A stretch of 64,000 bases of DNA from Eledone cirrhosa (lineage: Eukaryota). Position 1 is the stretch's first letter; the number at the start of each line of letters is the position of its first letter. The stretch is taken from NCBI GenBank assembly GCA_964016885.1, contig OZ024758.1:16988001-17052000 (forward strand), written 5' to 3'. The notes beneath the pieces were generated by a model. The model saw only the letters and a program-made list of their open reading frames with translations. It made no database searches and was not told where the DNA came from. Below, one piece after another: positions 9,425 through 39,600 of the stretch. The position numbers and the translations under genes were made by a program.

Positions 9425-9758
9425 TCTTTATCCCAGTTTCACCAGGAAGTGGGGTCAGCACCTAAGATCCTTTATTTTTCAAGGACTTCAAGACTGGCAT
9501 GGGGCAGGTTGTATGTGTGACAGCTCACACCTATGCAGCTTTAGCTGGCCCCCTCCAATGTATATCTCAGCGGTGTCTTGGGTAATTTAATGATAGGGAC
9601 CTCATTCCTATCATCTCATTTCTACAGCTGAGTAAACTGGAGCAATGTGAAATAAAGTGTCTTGCTCAAGGAAACAACACATCACCCGGTCTGAGAATTG
9701 AACTCACAACCTTTCGATTGCAAGGCCAATGCTCTAACCACTAAGCCATCTGCCTCCA
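9425..9758 (-). mobile_element. SINE family B head with an alternative 3' body
   Basis: 9590-9758 matches the tRNA head of 30030-30199 and 34190-34357; the distal part is unrelated to their tail. Confidence 0.7.
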
Positions 9759-21161: not shown

Positions 21162-21704
21162 TTAAGATAACTATCAGCAGCCAGTTATGGCTGGTTTGAA
21201 CAGAAAGAGGTGAGAGAATTCTGGCCGAATACGGCCACTTTAACCCTTTAGCATTTAAATGTTAAAGGGTTAAAATGCAATTTTTAAAAACTATATATTT
21301 CCATATATATATATCATCATAGAATTTTGTAATCGTGGGTCTATTATTTATAAATTTATCTTCTGAAATTTCCGATTTCCTTTAATAGTTGTTGTTGTGA
21401 TTGTACATTTATTATGACAGTCTCTTTTATAAATACTCATGCCCATTATTTATCATATCTATTACAAGTCATCGAGGTATCCCAGAGTTCCTTCTAGTTA
21501 TTCATTCATCACTGAAACCTTTCAAATTGATATGATCACTACACATTTACTCAACCAAACACATTTTCTAAAACGTTGCACTCTCACATTTATCATCTAA
21601 ACATTCCATGAAAATGCTTCAAAATTGCAGCAATTAACCAGCCAGAATAATGCTGGCACTCTGTTTAAACACCTCTTCAAGGGTTATTTAACAAACTTTG
21701 TTGT

Positions 21705-21850
21705 AAAGGCATGTGGCTGGGTGGTTAGAGAATTGGATTTGTAATCATGAGGTTGTGAGTTCGATTCCCAGACTGGAAATGTGTTATGTCCTTGAGCAAG
21801 GCACTTTATTTCATGTTGCTCCTTCTAACTGGAGCTGCAACCAATAGATA
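21705..21850 (+). mobile_element. Older tRNA-SINE related to the family B head
   Basis: TGGCTGGGTGGTTAGAG..GAGTTCGATTCC..TCCTTGAGCAAGGCACTTTATTTCA. Confidence 0.7.
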
Positions 21851-22290
21851 GTATTAGCAATTGGAAAGACCAATGGAAACATTGTTTCCTCGGTCCAATT
21901 TGATGACATTTGATCAACTGTCGATTGTAATGGCTTACAAATTTGCAAGAATTTTAACACTATTATTATTATTATTAGTAGTAGTATTATTATCAATGAT
22001 ACTATTATGCCATTAAGCAATCTCTTCCTCTATCTCTTTCTCTTACTCTAGCTTGATCACCCAAATCTATTTTGTGTCTGTGTGTATATATATATATATA
22101 TATATATTTGGGTTTGTTGGTTCACCACTGGATAGAACTGGTCATTCTGTGTGGTCAGCCATGTTATGGATAACACTCAACGTAATGCAACCATCCGTCT
22201 TCATTTGTGTAGTTGGTGGTGCGAGTACGGAGTTAATTATTACAAAATAACAGGAGGCATGTTCTGGTGTAAATCCTTGAAAGGTTTATT

Positions 22291-22348
22291 TTACTATGAT
22301 CATTTCAATGACCGGGTTCAGTATGAATCCGGTGACATCATCAGGTAA
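22291..22348 (-). ncRNA. Minimal type I hammerhead ribozyme
   Basis: Minus strand: TTAC-CTGATGA-[TGTCACCGGATTCA tac TGAACCCGGTCATT]-GAAA-TGATCA-TA-GTAA, then AATAAA; palindromic stem III ATGATCAT. Confidence 0.78.
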
Positions 22349-22637
22349 TTCAAAACATAAGGAAGGAATATATCAGATAAAAATCTTTGGTGTTTAAATC
22401 AGAGACAGGAGGGCGGCTGGTATTTTAGCGACTTGTATCTACGTCGACCGCCCTTGAGGTCTCCTTAATGCCTCTTTAATTATTATACTATTCCCTTGTG
22501 ATATCTGTCACATCATATATGTCAACTAATTTCCTAAACATTCCACTCTGTAAATACGAAACTGTTGTTGACAGCATTAATATCCATGTATCTACATGAT
22601 TGTTCAGTTGAATAGGAGGTTAACTATATGTACAAAC

Positions 22638-22694
22638 ATTGCTAGTTCTCTGATGATTCCAAATGAAAGTTTGGAAGAAACGATTGTCAGCAAT
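22638..22694 (+). ncRNA. Type I hammerhead ribozyme candidate
   Basis: CTGATGA(22650)-TTCCAAA tgaaag TTTGGAA-GAAA-CGATTG-TC-AGCAAT, then AATAAA; perfect 7-bp stem II and GUC site; stem I imperfect. Confidence 0.7.
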
Positions 22695-23972
22695 AAATGA
22701 TTTGAACATAACTTTGTGTAATTTATTGTGTAACTTATATTCCTGCTGTGTAAAACACCTGATGTTCTTACATTGAGCTATTTTTCTTACTGGTAATAAG
22801 GTAGTAATAAATTACTGACCTTCCCTGTTTATAGTTGTATATAGTGTATACATAACTATGAATAGAATCATCATTATTATTATATGTATACATATATATA
22901 AATCAAGATGGGTTCAGTTTGAAACTGGTTAGACCATTACTCAAGTGAGTACTTGATACTTGGGGTAGTAGTATATTATAAAGAGTCTGGAACTAGCTGT
23001 TGAACAGGCAAGAGCTCAGCCGCTGGGGTCCTGACTCTTTATATACCATACATGAAAATATGACAGTGTGTGTTAGAATTAAGAAAGGCATTTGACCATA
23101 GAAAAACTAAAAACTGCCTCAAAACTGTCTCATCTAACCCATGCCAGCATGTAAAAGTAGAAGTAAAAATCACACTGCTGCTATTGCTGCTGCTGCTAAT
23201 GATGATCTTGATGTTGAGAATGATGTATATATTATATACATCATATACACATATATATTATTTTTTACTTTTATATTCTACCACATCAAATATCAGTTAT
23301 ATATGATCTTGCTCATTAATATCTACCAGCTTCAGCAGCTTTGCTTTTCCTTTCATCAACAAATATCAGTAATTTCCAAAAAATAAAATAAAAAAACAAA
23401 ACGAACTTATATTTTATTATATTTTATGTTTGAAAATTTGTAAATTACCTTTAAATTTCAATCAACTGACAGAGCATAATCACTGCAACCTTCAGTTAAA
23501 AAATAAAATATTTATCTAATGATTTATATTTACAACTCATCAACTTCATTTGCTGAGAAACATACCAAAAGCTAACTTGTCATTCCTCTATAGACCCTAT
23601 ATTTTATCACAGAAAAGTTGAATAGCATAATTAATACACAAATATATAAACGTTTTGAAAAAAAAAAAAATAATAATATAACTATGAGAAAGAATAAATG
23701 CGAAAAATATTGGAATAAAACAAATCAGAACTTATGGGAAAATATTTTGTGATGTATCAAAGTTAATTTTCACCTTTACAAACATTTTATGATGTGGTTT
23801 GATGTGCAATAATTTACAGCTTGTAAATTACAGAAATGATATCAAAGGATCTATAATAAAGCATTTAGAAGTCCAGCAATGATCTACCTTATAACATTGG
23901 AATCAGTTCGTCTTAAAGAAATAAATACTTGGGTAGAAAATAAAATATTGCGATAAAATTTAGTAGAAAACT

Positions 23973-28593: not shown

Positions 28594-28932
28594 ATGGAGG
28601 CACATGGCTTAGTGGTTAGAGCATTGGCCTTGCAATCGAAAGGTTGTGAGTTCAATTCTCAGACCGGGTGATTTGTTGTTTCCTTGAGCAATATGAGTGA
28701 GACACGGTCATCCGACCCAACTTACCTCTAAATGGGACCCATCTAACCCATGCTAGCATGGAAGTGGACATGCAAAGTGGACGTGTAGGCGCCATGGCAA
28801 AAAAGCACCCAGCACTCACTGTAAATGAGGTTGGTGTTAGGAAGGGCATCCAGCTGTAGAAATCAAGCCAGAATCAGTTCCCGTCCCACCCTTGCAAGCA
28901 GGGAAAAGCAGACGTAAAATGAAATGACAATG
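28594..28932 (+). mobile_element. Chimeric SINE family B copy
   Basis: tRNA head TGGCTTAGTGGTTAGAGC..GAGTTCAATTC and RTE-type tail CCCTTGCAAGCAGGGAAAAGCAGACGTAAAATGA; the centre is replaced by other sequence. Confidence 0.85.
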
Positions 28933-29869: not shown

Positions 29870-30199
29870 TTTCATCATTTCATTTTACGTCCACTTTTCC
29901 CTGCTTGCAAGGGTGGGACGGGAACTGATTCTGGCTTGATTTCTACAGCTGGATGCCCTTCCTAACACCAACCTCATTTACAGTGGGTGCTTTTTTGCCG
30001 TGGCACCTCCACGTCCACTTTGCAGTGGAATGATAGGGACCCCAGTCCCTATCATCTCATTTCTACAGCTGAGTAAACTGGAGCAATGTGAAATAAAGTG
30101 TCTTGCTCAAGGAAACAACACATCACCCGGTCTGAGAATTGAACTCACAACCTTTCGATTGCAAGGCCAATGCTCTAACCACTAAGCCATGTGCCTCCA
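29870..30199 (-). mobile_element. SINE family B copy
   Basis: Near-identical to 34025-34357 and to the reverse complement of 38974-39317. Confidence 0.9.
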
Positions 30200-30906: not shown

Positions 30907-31314
30907 ATATTTATATATATGTATATATATATATATATTTGTATATATATATGTATATATATATATTATTTATTATTAGTACAGATTAACTGTTTAAGCA
31001 ACACATTTCTGTTTAACCCTAAGTGGGATAGTCTGAAACTGAGAAAAAGGTTTTCAGTATTAATAATGTAAATAAAACCCTTTTTGTACAGCCGACCATG
31101 TTATTCTTCACTCTTTACCTATATATATATATATAATACATACAACAAATATTAGATTTGATATATATATATCAAATAAAAAAACAGAGTTGCATTTATC
31201 CCTGTAATTTAATGAACTCAAGGAATAAGTACCGGGCTCTTCATAATAGTGTATATAGAGAAGAAAACAGAAAAAGGGTATGTTTTCAATTACAAGGGGT
31301 AGAGAACTACTAGA

Positions 31315-32365
31315 GTGAAGGGATCTGTTCTTGGTCCCCTTTTGTTTGTGGCATATATTAATGACATAGATGCCAACTTACAGAATGCCACGGTACTGAA
31401 ATATGCAGATGACATCAAGCTGTACCTTGAAATCAAAAGGACTGATCCTGAAATCTACAACTCTTTCTTACAATCAGACCTGGACACAATGCAGCAATGG
31501 ATCACAGACTGGCAACTGAAGCTGGCTGTGGACAAGTGTACCACCATGCATTTTCGGAGGAAAAATCCAGCATCCATATACTCCCTCCACAACACTGATA
31601 TCAAGAAGTCCTCTTGTGAACGTGACTTGGGCATTACTGTCAGCAGCGATTTGAGTTGGACAAAGCATGTCTCTAAGATTGTCAAAAAGGCCGAGGGTGT
31701 CTTGGCATCACTCAGCAAGACCTTTGTTAGCTGCTCTCCAGTCATCTATTTAAAACTGAATACAGCTATGGTACGACCACACTTGGAATTCGCATCATCA
31801 GTCTGGAATCCCTATCTTGCTCAGAACATTGACCACCTGGAAACTGTTCAGAAACGTGCAACCAAGCGCATACCCTCCATCAGACACCTACCATACTCTG
31901 AATGCCTTGCTTCCCTGGGCATGGATTCATTGAAGCTCCGACGTCTGGCAATGGACTTGGTAAACACCCACAAAGTTATTAACCATCACGCCAACAACAA
32001 CCCTGAGCACCTTTTTGATCTCCATGTGTCTAACACACGTGGACATGCTTACAAAATCAGAAACCATGACTTTCGTAAACATCTTTTCACGCTCAGAGTT
32101 GCTGAAGCATGGAACAAACTGCCTGTGTCAGTTGTTAGCTGCCGAGACACTGCATCCTTTAAAACACTCATGCTTCCCCAAATACGCCAAAACTACACCT
32201 GATGTACCCCTTCCATACACATGCACACATGTGTATATCATGACTCCTGCACTGTTCATTTTCCTGGCGTTTGTACATTACCCTATGTACTATACATACA
32301 CTTTTTGATGAGTTGTAGTGCACCTGAGCACTGTACACAATATTTCATTATTATTATATTATTAT
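31315..32365 (+). mobile_element. 5'-truncated CR1/L2-group LINE: RT C-terminal ORF remnant (31315-32202) plus 3' UTR and (ATT)n tail
   Basis: GSVLGPLLFVAYIND, KYADDIKLY, ERDLGI, MVRPHLEFASSVWNPY, LETVQKRATK, NTRGH, FTLRVAEAWNKLP; no true start and no endonuclease domain. Confidence 0.93.
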
Positions 32366-34024: not shown

Positions 34025-34357
34025 TCATTTCATTTTACATCCGCTTTTCCCTGCTTGCAAGCAAGGGTGGGATGGGAACTGATTCTGGCTTGATTTCTAC
34101 AGCTGGATGCCCTTCCTAACACCAACCTCATTTACAGTGAGTGCTGGGTGCTTTTTTGCCATGGCACCTACACGACCACTTTGCAGTGGAATGATAGGGA
34201 CCCCAGTCCCTATCATCTCATTTCTACAGCTGAGTAAACTGGAGCAATGTGAAATAAAGTGTCTTGCTCAAGGAAACAACACATCACCCGGTCTGAGAAT
34301 TGAACTCACGACCTTTCGATTGCAAGGCCAATGCTCTAACCACTAAGCCATGTGCCT
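34025..34357 (-). mobile_element. SINE family B copy
   Basis: Head, hairpin, module and RTE tail all present. Confidence 0.9.
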
Positions 34358-35254
34358 ATATAGAAATAATGGGTTGATGATATCTCATCAAACTTTTCAG
34401 ATATAAAAAAACTCTGGTCTAAAAATAACTATCATTACCAAAATTTGCATCATGAACTTCACAAATTTACTCAATAAAATTACAATACAGCAAACCTTAA
34501 GTAGCCATGAGTAAAAGAGAGTATATAGGAAAAGTGTCAGGAACCCGATGGCTGAGCTCTGGCTGTTTCGTCAGCAAAATCTGAACTAAGCCTGCAGTAT
34601 TAGAATGGCGGGAATCTAGCTGAACTTATCAAGGGGTACAGTCCATATATGGGCATGCAGTCAAAACAAAAAAGCAGGAATATCAAATAAAAAATCCTAA
34701 AAATTTGTTGTTTTTCTTGTCCGTCACCAGGAATGGTCAATGAATTTGGGATGTCATGTACATGGTTAAATTTCTTCATAGCAGCGGGGCTGAACTGGTC
34801 ATTGAGATTTGAACTCAGAATAAATACAGTAAAGTATTTTGTCAAAATGCTCTACAATATTCAATGTTCAACTTGGAGTACTCATTCCAACAAGTAAAAA
34901 TATTCTGATTAAGCTTGGTAAATTGGTTGCATGATATGTGAGAAAATGCAAATTGGTTGCTATTAGAGCTAATTACTCTAATTTTGAATTTGCAGCTCTG
35001 AAATGCAGTGGAGTAAGCTTATATTATCTCGCCATAGTTGCATAGATAATGAGGCAAATTGACAGAGTCAGTAGAACATAAGATAAAATGCCAGGTAGTC
35101 TTAGTTTCTTATTCATATGTTCTTAATTAAAACCTCACTGAAATCGTCTTCACATTTCATCCTTTTGGGGTTGAAAGAATAAAGTAATAATGTAGAAAGG
35201 TGGGTTCAAATAATTGCTAGAGCATTAGCTAAAATGAGGTATTTCTTTTGCCAC

Positions 35255-38814: not shown

Positions 38815-39600
38815 TAAGCCTTTAGCATTTAAACCAGCCGTATCTGGCCAGAACTCTCTCATCTCTTTCTGTTCAAACCGGCTGTAACTAGTCATTCATG
38901 CCTACATTAAGGTATTGTATTGTTTTCAAAATAAATAACATCAAAATTTCGTAGATTTGATATTATGTGCGCTAATGGAGGCACATGGCTTAGTGGTTAG
39001 AGCATTGGCCTTGCAATCGAAAGGTTGTGAGTTCAATTCTCAGACCGGGTGATGTGTTGTTTCCTTGAGCAAGACACTTTATTTCACATTGCTCCAGTTT
39101 ACTCAGCTGTAGAAATGAGATGATAGGGACTGGGGTCCCTATCATTCCACTGCAAAGTGGTCGTGGAGGTGCCACAGCAAAAAAGCACCCAGCACACACT
39201 GTAAATGAGGTTGGTGTTAGGAAGGGCATCCAGCTGTAGAAATCAAGCCAGAATCAGTTCCCGTCCCACCCTTGCAAGCAGGGAAAAGCGGACGTAGAAT
39301 GATGATGATGATGATGAATGATGTAAGGTAAAGCCTTTACTGTGAAAATACCATAGTAAATATAGAGTAATGTAAATGCTAAAGGATTAAATAGGCTATA
39401 TCTGTTCAGAATTCTCTCGCCATTTTCTGTTCAAACCGGCTGTAACTGCTCACTCATACTTACATTAAGGTATTGTTCTCAAAATAAATGATATCAAAAT
39501 TTCGTAATTTGATGTTAGATGAGATAATTATGTAAGATAAAACCTTTACTGGGAAAATACTATAGTATATATAGAGTAATGTGAATGCTAAATGGTTAAG
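38815..39600. mobile_element. piggyBac-type MITE split by SINE B (38974-39317), followed by a second MITE copy (about 39395-39600)
   Basis: CCTTTAGCATTTAAACC start; MITE sequence resumes at about 39320; ends AATGCTAAAGGATTAA and AATGCTAAATGGTTAA. Confidence 0.8.
38974..39317 (+). mobile_element. Full-length SINE family B
   Basis: A box TGGCTTAGTGG, B box GAGTTCAATTC, TCCTTGAGCAAGACACTT domain, hairpin ATGATAGGGAC-tggg-GTCCCTATCAT, RTE tail plus (TGA)n. Confidence 0.92.

What the first reader, a model, noticed from the sequence alone, without database searches (positions are those of the whole stretch)
22100..22800. Two different hammerheads pointing outward, 300 bp apart, each followed by AATAAA
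Seen: a minus-strand HHR at 22291-22348 (stem III palindrome AUGAUCAU) and a plus-strand HHR at 22638-22694 (perfect 7-bp stem II, GUC site). Their sequences are unrelated, each has AATAAA just downstream, and the block starts at a (TA)n tract. Between them the minus strand has a trace IIKEAL, reminiscent of a GIY-YIG C-terminal helix (weak). Inference: two distinct PLE families joined head-to-head, or one composite element able to self-cleave in both polarities, as in viroid-like RNAs with ambisense ribozymes.
Basis: partly seen in the sequence, partly recalled or inferred. Interest (0 to 1): 0.75.

Follow-up and report, generated by a model that had tools for sequence, protein, structure and literature searches.

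The report
Two Penelope families fused back-to-back
This is a one-off junction where the tail ends of two different, very common jumping-gene families, each carrying its usual hammerhead RNA motif, sit back to back; it likely arose from two separate insertions into the same TA-repeat spot and is an ordinary product of these elements, with no sign of being a viroid-like unit.

Summary
Both hammerheads are real and at the stated places, but each belongs to its own high-copy Penelope-like (PLE) family. Family A (22110-22458, minus) has 6,009 exact motif copies, and the long copies seen are non-coding 2.1-kb units. Family B (22460-22885, plus) has 1,737, and its long copies encode RT plus GIY-YIG with Hydra-clade motifs. 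The junction occurs once in 3.0 Gb; random placement alone predicts about 0.6 such pairs. Outward-facing hammerhead pairs are routine here: 66 same-family against 2 cross-family pairs without TA between (this one included). Same-family pairs have one long and one short 3' end (42 of 47); this pair is long+long, which favours two events. IIKEAL is antisense to B's non-coding 3' region and is chance. The plus-strand copy is decayed: family B's core is CCGAUGA (U4C), and here helix I is broken. Opposite-strand PLE hammerheads 100-700 bp apart are published. The scan noted the two-fixed-ends footprint before on other DNA. The open novel reading (about 0.2) is one insertion event using RNAs of two families. 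Cleavage and expression are untested.

The parts
22086..22107 (.). (TA)n tract at the 3' end of family A (likely the insertion target)
   Evidence: sequence; A copies elsewhere also end in (TA)n
22110..22458 (-). Family A arm: 5'-truncated 3' end (pLTR plus about 130-bp tail, the 'long' end) of a non-coding Penelope-like element
   Evidence: 6,009 exact 18-mer copies; 5 of 315 non-CpG differences from the majority of its 15 nearest copies
22238..22238 (-). Alternative 'short' 3' end of family A (not used in this copy)
   Evidence: inverted arms of other copies end at or near here
22291..22348 (-). Type I hammerhead of family A: canonical core, palindromic helix III AUGAUCAU, UA cleavage site; matches the family majority
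   Evidence: fold z -2.1
22285..22290 (-). AATAAA just after helix I; a family-wide feature, function untested
22410..22455 (-). GC-rich hairpin whose base marks the preferred 5' truncation site of family A
   Evidence: fold -20.5 kcal/mol for 22401-22462; 23 of 32 copies that reach this site end at or near it (my count)
22459..22459 (.). Junction: one extra G, no microhomology and no TA between the two 5'-truncated ends
   Evidence: unique in the genome
22460..22885 (+). Family B arm: 5'-truncated 3' end (3' non-coding region, pLTR and about 150-bp tail, the 'long' end) of a Hydra-type RT plus GIY-YIG Penelope-like element
   Evidence: 1,737 exact 18-mer copies; 12 of 329 non-CpG differences
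22466..22483 (-). IIKEAL letters: antisense to B's non-coding 3' region, chance
   Evidence: 22-codon stop-to-stop frame that crosses the junction; no tblastn hit below E 0.3 anywhere in the window with 9 PLE protein pieces
22646..22692 (+). Type I hammerhead of family B, decayed copy (22647 G>T breaks helix I; 22651 C>T; 22664 C>T); near-palindromic ACGAUUGU, GUC site
22692..22697 (+). AATAAA just after helix I; a family-wide feature, function untested
22740..22740 (+). Alternative 'short' 3' end of family B (not used in this copy)
22886..22900 (.). TA run closing the B arm
   Evidence: sequence; a 102-nt contig with no differences spans 22835-22936 in runs X1 and X2

Best explanation
The block is two dead, 5'-truncated 3' ends of two different Penelope-like families, each carrying its family's hammerhead motif and ending in a TA repeat, whose cut 5' ends are joined once in the genome, likely because two separate insertions hit the same TA tract and the DNA between them was lost. 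Shown: two independent families, TA at both outer ends, a unique junction, both arms with the 'long' 3' end, and RT plus GIY-YIG in long B copies. Inferred steps: a Hydra-type endonuclease cuts (TA)n; the reverse transcriptase copies the RNA from a fixed 3' site and stops early (for A at a hairpin where most copies stop); the TA left at that 5' end is cut again by the other family's enzyme; the second cDNA is end-joined with loss of the residual TA, or a later small deletion removes the inner TA and any short second arms. The order is unresolved. The hammerheads are passengers of the pLTRs, predicted to fold only as dimers or with protein help, and there is no sign that the fused unit is copied.
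For: Each half is a separate family: 6,009 and 1,737 exact 18-mers, reversed controls 0. The junction 32-mer with up to 3 mismatches has 1 hit. Random placement predicts 0.61 divergent A-B pairs within 350 bp. Different families cluster at shared TA tracts: 78 of 81 cross-family neighbour pairs within 1.5 kb have 8 or more nt of TA between them (for tandem and convergent pairs this follows from the 3' ends themselves), and in L170 a B copy starts right behind an A copy's TA tail. Same-family two-armed inserts are long+short in 42 of 47. Of the 4 long+long cases, 3 have a short end at the true outer terminus, the counted arm being an internal tandem pLTR. This locus is long+long, so it does not match the usual single-event footprint. 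The A arm ends at a truncation hot spot that 9 other loci follow directly with TA, the predicted intermediate. Long A arms with no partner found within 1.5 kb are common, 15 of 32 (sample enriched for solos).
Against: No TA and no remnant of a short arm lies at the junction, so a loss has to be assumed. The two arms cannot be dated apart (1.6% against 3.6%, Fisher p 0.14). A second cross-family fusion, L181 (A plus a third family), is short+long with TA only outside, as a single event would give. Long B arms with no partner are few (2 of 10). No empty site or intermediate allele was seen, and no listed read or contig bridges the junction.
Confidence: 0.65

Rival explanations
1. One integration event with two templates: both DNA ends of one cut in the TA tract were extended, one on a family A RNA and one on a family B RNA, and the two cDNAs were joined at their truncated ends.
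For: TA lies only at the outer ends and the junction is clean, like the 66 same-family pairs without inner TA. The two arms have similar ages. A appears non-coding and needs a borrowed enzyme. A purified PLE protein cuts and extends both strands and is predicted to be a dimer (PMC11167929, parts 1-2 of 4). L181 is a second cross-family pair and is short+long.
Against: This locus is long+long against 42 of 47 long+short. A and B share no sequence, and nothing shows that one enzyme binds both RNAs. A chance adjacency is expected anyway. PMC3846280 (passages) reports no cross-mobilisation between PLE types in a rotifer.
Confidence: 0.22
2. A rearrangement bridge: two insertions began at different sites, and their first-strand (long) arms were joined, fusing DNA that was not adjacent before.
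For: It explains long+long without an extra loss. Bridges from two synchronous L1 insertions are described in tumours (10.1101/2024.08.27.596794, abstract and passages).
Against: There is no direct evidence here, the flanks are repeats, and no related genome was available to compare.
Confidence: 0.07
3. Assembly artefact joining two repeat copies.
For: No listed read or contig bridges 22459 (only the longest pieces are shown, and a hole proves nothing).
Against: A second fusion of the same design exists (L181). Both arms carry private substitutions, and the right end with its flank is matched exactly by a contig in two runs of one sample.
Confidence: 0.04
4. A composite, self-propagating element or viroid-like circular RNA with hammerheads in both polarities.
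For: Only the geometry: two hammerheads on opposite strands.
Against: Single copy. Each half spreads without the other. There is no tandem repeat of the unit, so a transcript of either strand has one cut site and no unit-length product. The plus hammerhead has a broken helix I. The same geometry is the routine PLE inverted insertion (PMC8557442, PMC4209133).
Confidence: 0.02

Closest known systems
Hydra clade of C-terminal EN+ Penelope-like elements (Craig et al. 2021, PMC8557442; section 11 and passages read)
   Same: Family B has RT followed by GIY-YIG, DKT, a CxCX5C linker, CxxC and CxH around the endonuclease E/N residues, a hammerhead in the pLTR, (TA)n targets, and direct and inverted pLTRs.
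   Different: B has RWR or RWT where the paper gives RWK. It is about 4.2 kb with a 3' non-coding region of about 1.5 kb (paper: generally under 3 kb). Its tail is about 130-160 bp (paper: 30-40 bp for PLEs). At this locus the inverted partner comes from another family.
PLE pLTR hammerheads (Cervera and de la Pena 2014, PMC4209133; parts 1-2 of 4 read)
   Same: Type I motif with long helix II, short helix I and small palindromic helix III; mostly single motifs in truncated copies; dual motifs about 100-700 bp apart on opposite strands are reported in Schistosoma.
   Different: The text read does not say whether those pairs are of one family or two. Here neither motif has the usual G10.1-C11.1 pair, and family B has a U4C core.
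Inverted (head-to-head) PLE insertions with a one-sided tail (PMC3846280, passages; PMC11167929, parts 1-2 of 4)
   Same: Two 5'-truncated arms back to back and two fixed 3' ends, matching two reverse-transcription start sites.
   Different: The published cases read are of one family with the tail on one arm; this locus has two families and both tails.
Viroids and viroid-like circles with ambisense hammerheads; metazoan non-LTR retrozymes (recalled; preprint 10.64898/2026.07.22.740005, part 1 of 5 read)
   Same: Hammerheads on opposite strands (viroids); type I hammerheads related to PLEs (retrozymes).
   Different: There is no repeated monomer, no second copy and no evidence of a circle; retrozymes are defined by tandem units, each with a hammerhead.

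Membership tests
Hydra-clade PLE (family B) | RT followed by a C-terminal GIY-YIG endonuclease | tested here: met
   L066 and L068; Pfam GIY-YIG E 7e-4 and 2e-3, both below the curated cut-off; YRDD; reading frames are broken in the copies seen
Hydra-clade PLE (family B) | DKT in place of DKG | tested here: met
   HADKTNN in L066 and L148
Hydra-clade PLE (family B) | CxCX5C linker; CxxC and CxH around E and N; no CCHH | tested here: met
   CNCRTNRTC, LCNLC and SCQH; absence of CCHH judged by eye from the translation
Hydra-clade PLE (family B) | N-terminal RWK motif | tested here: inconclusive
   RVRWR in L066 and RVRWT in L148; RVRWK in a related family in L168
Hydra-clade PLE (family B) | (TA)n targets and a hammerhead in the pLTR | tested here: met
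Hydra-clade PLE (family B) | Placement in the Hydra clade on an RT tree | not tested
   no reference sequences were fetched; the paper's supplements were not read
Non-autonomous PLE derivative (family A) | pLTR with hammerhead, tandem and inverted partial copies, one-sided tail, (TA)n targets | tested here: met
Non-autonomous PLE derivative (family A) | No coding capacity; an autonomous partner that shares the pLTR | tested here: inconclusive
   2.1-kb unit with longest stop-free frame 130 codons and no tblastn hit in 6 copies; no partner found in 4 extended loci; other A subfamilies not fully examined
Type I hammerhead ribozyme | Core and three helices | tested here: met
   A: canonical core, intact. 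B family: U4C core, 92% of cells paired in 8 related motifs against 23-47% when slid, covariation weak (25 of 500 shuffles reach the score). The window's B copy has a broken helix I. No Rfam match
Type I hammerhead ribozyme | Self-cleavage | not testable with these tools
   needs an in vitro assay
Viroid-like or ambisense-ribozyme replicon | A unit that recurs as a unit (multiple copies or head-to-tail multimers) | tested here: not met
Viroid-like or ambisense-ribozyme replicon | Circular RNA of both polarities | not testable with these tools
   needs RNA data or RT-PCR
Non-LTR retrozyme | Tandem units each with a hammerhead | tested here: not met
   no tandem repeat covers 22110-22900

The most novel reading that the evidence does not exclude
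A Penelope-type enzyme complex can load two unrelated RNAs, copy one into each end of a single DNA cut and join them. This locus and L181 would be fossils of cross-family two-template priming, showing that the two arms of ordinary inverted PLE insertions are copied from two RNA molecules. At about 1 such fusion per 67-140 copies sampled, the genome would hold tens of test cases.
Probability: 0.22. Interest if true: 0.55.

Novelty: new member of a known kind. Interest (0 to 1): 0.24.

Why it matters
As read here it matters little: it is one junction between two of at least a dozen hammerhead-bearing PLE families that pile into TA tracts. It warns that opposite-strand hammerheads in animal DNA are usually PLE inverted insertions and not viroid-like replicons. 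If cross-family fusions prove to be single events, they would bear on an open point in PLE integration (one RNA or two per inverted insertion), and a genome census could test that. A side result worth an assay is a family of at least 1,700 copies with a U4C core, a variant that lowers activity in vitro in a viroid (PMC3088659, passage).

Tried and rejected
Rfam scans of the whole window and of 21600-23100 gave no hammerhead match. IIKEAL as a GIY-YIG remnant was rejected. The PDB sequence search with the B endonuclease region found nothing. A genome-wide A-B co-occurrence count over a wide spacing could not be run, so co-occurrence rests on samples and on junction patterns. The gap pattern had the A motif in the wrong orientation; it could not match this locus and is uninformative. 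One search used a structure string off by one in helix I and is replaced. The automatic labels (L104, L222; L007, L021, L160, L162) were wrong and were corrected by eye. Sequencing runs: no RNA holder listed, which says nothing on expression; laying 7 runs was swamped by other family copies and showed no alternative allele and no bridging piece. The search for an autonomous partner of A failed. Dating the arms apart failed (p 0.14). Cross-family candidates L014 and L041 and L190 and L214 have TA and other sequence between the arms and were dropped as fusions; L103, L130 and L172 were dropped on their inner TA alone. Five literature searches listed no paper whose title or abstract describes cross-family head-to-head PLE fusions; only six papers were opened in part, and no supplements were read (those of PMC8557442 and PMC4209133 may list these families or motifs).

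Full report
Observation. The window lies at G000:C19 in a 3.0-Gb animal genome; its repeat landscape looks octopus-like (recalled, and so named in other scan notes, not tested). The minus motif (22348-22291) has a canonical core, helix I UUAC/GUAA, palindromic AUGAUCAU and a UA site. The plus motif has CUGAUGA at 22650, a 7-bp helix II, ACGAUUGU and a GUC site. AATAAA follows each. A strict descriptor gave 0 hits on average in 30 shuffles. Rfam matched neither. Each helix III octamer can pair with a second copy of itself (-7.2 and -5.8 kcal/mol), as described for PLE hammerheads that are thought to work as dimers (PMC4209133, parts 1-2 of 4).

Two families. A DNA search with 22110-22830 returned, apart from the locus itself, only matches to the first 350 or so bases (40 of 5,723 candidates scored). 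A search with 22460-22900 returned a separate set (40 of 4,272). Exact 18-mers from the two ribozymes occur 6,009 (A) and 1,737 (B) times, with reversed controls 0. Both families end in (TA)n. Long B copies (L066, L068) run pLTR, RT, GIY-YIG, about 1.5 kb non-coding, pLTR. They carry DKT, CNCRTNRTC, LCNLC and SCQH, the diagnostics of the Hydra clade in PMC8557442 (section 11); the RWK motif reads RWR or RWT, and no tree was built. The long A copies examined form a 2.1-kb unit with tandem and inverted partial pLTRs, a longest stop-free frame of 130 codons and no tblastn match to PLE proteins in 6 copies. I found no autonomous partner for A. A and B share no real similarity (best E 0.35).

IIKEAL. 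It lies at 22466-22483 on the strand opposite to B's ORF, in B's 3' non-coding region more than 1 kb after the true endonuclease, in a 22-codon frame that crosses the junction. Nine PLE protein pieces give no tblastn hit below E 0.3 in the whole window. It is chance.

The junction is unique. A 32-mer across it, allowing 3 mismatches, hits only this place, and so does an exact 16-mer ending at the junction. A DNA search centred on the junction returned only A halves elsewhere (40 of 1,415 scored). From the copy numbers, random placement predicts 0.61 divergent A-B pairs within 350 bp; shared TA targeting would raise that. The junction has one extra G, no microhomology and no TA.

Outward-facing pairs are routine. 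In about 936 kb of fetched loci plus the window (overlaps included, 403 distinct motifs), neighbouring hammerheads within 1.5 kb that face outward with no TA between them are same-family in 66 cases and cross-family in 2: this locus and L181. The motifs fall into 12 multi-copy clusters and 10 singletons. Among 140 loci centred on an A or B motif (60 first listed, 80 picked for lacking a nearby exact partner), 6 have another family's outward motif as the nearest upstream neighbour after two mislabels are removed, and only L181 lacks TA between. Opposite-strand motifs about 100-700 bp apart are reported for Schistosoma in PMC4209133, and inverted 5'-truncated partners are a standard PLE structure (PMC8557442 and PMC3846280, passages).

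How it formed. Each family has two fixed 3' ends, about 130 bp (A) and 150-160 bp (B) apart. Of 47 same-family head-to-head pairs, 42 are long+short, 4 long+long and 1 short+short; in 3 of the 4 the counted arm is an internal tandem pLTR and the true outer end is short. This fits two reverse-transcription start sites and extension of both strands, shown in vitro for a lizard PLE (PMC11167929, parts 1-2 of 4). The window pair is long+long, so it departs from the single-event footprint. The A arm also stops at a hot spot: 23 of 32 copies that reach this hairpin base end at or near it, and 9 are followed directly by TA, some with a few bases of a short second arm. Such a copy offers a TA target at its 5' end. 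In L170 a B copy starts right behind an A tail, which shows that the two families reuse the same tracts. I therefore put two separate insertions with loss of the inner TA at 0.65. Against this: no inner remnant survives, the arms are not datably different (5 of 315 against 12 of 329, p 0.14), long B arms without a partner are few (2 of 10), and L181 is short+long with TA only outside. One event on two RNAs therefore keeps 0.22. A rearrangement bridge, as described for synchronous L1 insertions (10.1101/2024.08.27.596794, passages), would also give long+long (0.07). No listed read or contig bridges the junction, so an artefact keeps 0.04.

State of the ribozymes. The A motif equals its family majority (68 rows, some duplicated loci). 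In family B, 31 of 46 rows read CCGAUGA and 6 read CUGAUGA; in RAD reads most family copies have C at 22651 (for example 49 of 53 and 58 of 71 in run X5). The window's canonical look is therefore likely CpG decay. The same copy has G>T at 22647, which breaks helix I, and C>T at 22664. Across 8 B-like motifs the structure holds (92% of cells paired against 23-47% when slid), with weak covariation. U4C is known from a viroid, where it lowers activity in vitro (PMC3088659, passage). An A-rich hexamer follows most motifs of several families (116 of 120 and 62 of 89 motif rows of the A and B clusters under a loose three-variant pattern), so AATAAA is no special feature of this pair; its function is untested. 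In the lizard PLE the ribozyme needed protein to cleave and was dispensable for insertion in vitro (PMC11167929). Cleavage and expression were not testable here.

Earlier scan notes. After reaching this reading I looked at earlier notes. Several describe two-armed inserts with two fixed ends in other families of this genome and in another genome, and one describes arms from two subfamily templates. I tested the two-ends rule only on families A and B. They are AI notes and are not independent support.

Verdict. New members of a known kind; interest 0.24.

Noticed in passing
L181 (G000:C1:26324348-26327365), about 1450-1860: Second cross-family head-to-head fusion: a short-end A arm joined to a long-end arm of a third hammerhead family, TA only outside, with a 16-bp palindrome at the junction; the third family's motif has lost its GAAA.
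   Followed up: partly
family B and relatives, e.g. L066, L094, L115, L149, L122: A U4C core (CCGA) is the majority state: 75 of 89 motif rows in the B-like cluster, and it also occurs in two other clusters.
   Followed up: partly
window 7388 and 50125, minus strand: Two more type I hammerheads of another family (palindromic AUGCGCAU, 8-bp helix I).
   Followed up: no
L069-L093: Family A forms a 2.1-kb non-coding unit with a fixed 5' start preceded by a partial copy of its own 3' end, as if copied from a multimer or circle; its enzyme source is unknown.
   Followed up: partly
L170:500-720 (G000:C2): A B copy begins directly behind an A copy's TA tail, with a short motif repeated three times between TA runs at its 5' junction.
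   Followed up: no
L050:2521: A divergent hammerhead keeps the same mismatched base of helix II as family A (UGUCAC...GUCAUU), which suggests a conserved non-canonical element.
   Followed up: no
window 21707-21822, also about 9640-9755, 28598-28691, 30080-30196, 34241-34360, 38979-39095: Dispersed tRNA-like SINE copies; five of them score just below the Rfam tRNA cut-off.
   Followed up: no
window 22897-23045: Two further dispersed repeats abut the right TA run; not identified.
   Followed up: no
window 31303-32199 (+): A 299-codon stop-free frame with a YADD motif, probably a LINE reverse transcriptase fragment (label recalled).
   Followed up: no
window 22539-22880: 6 of the 12 non-CpG differences of the B arm from its nearest copies are T>C on the element's sense strand; too few to call editing.
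   Followed up: no
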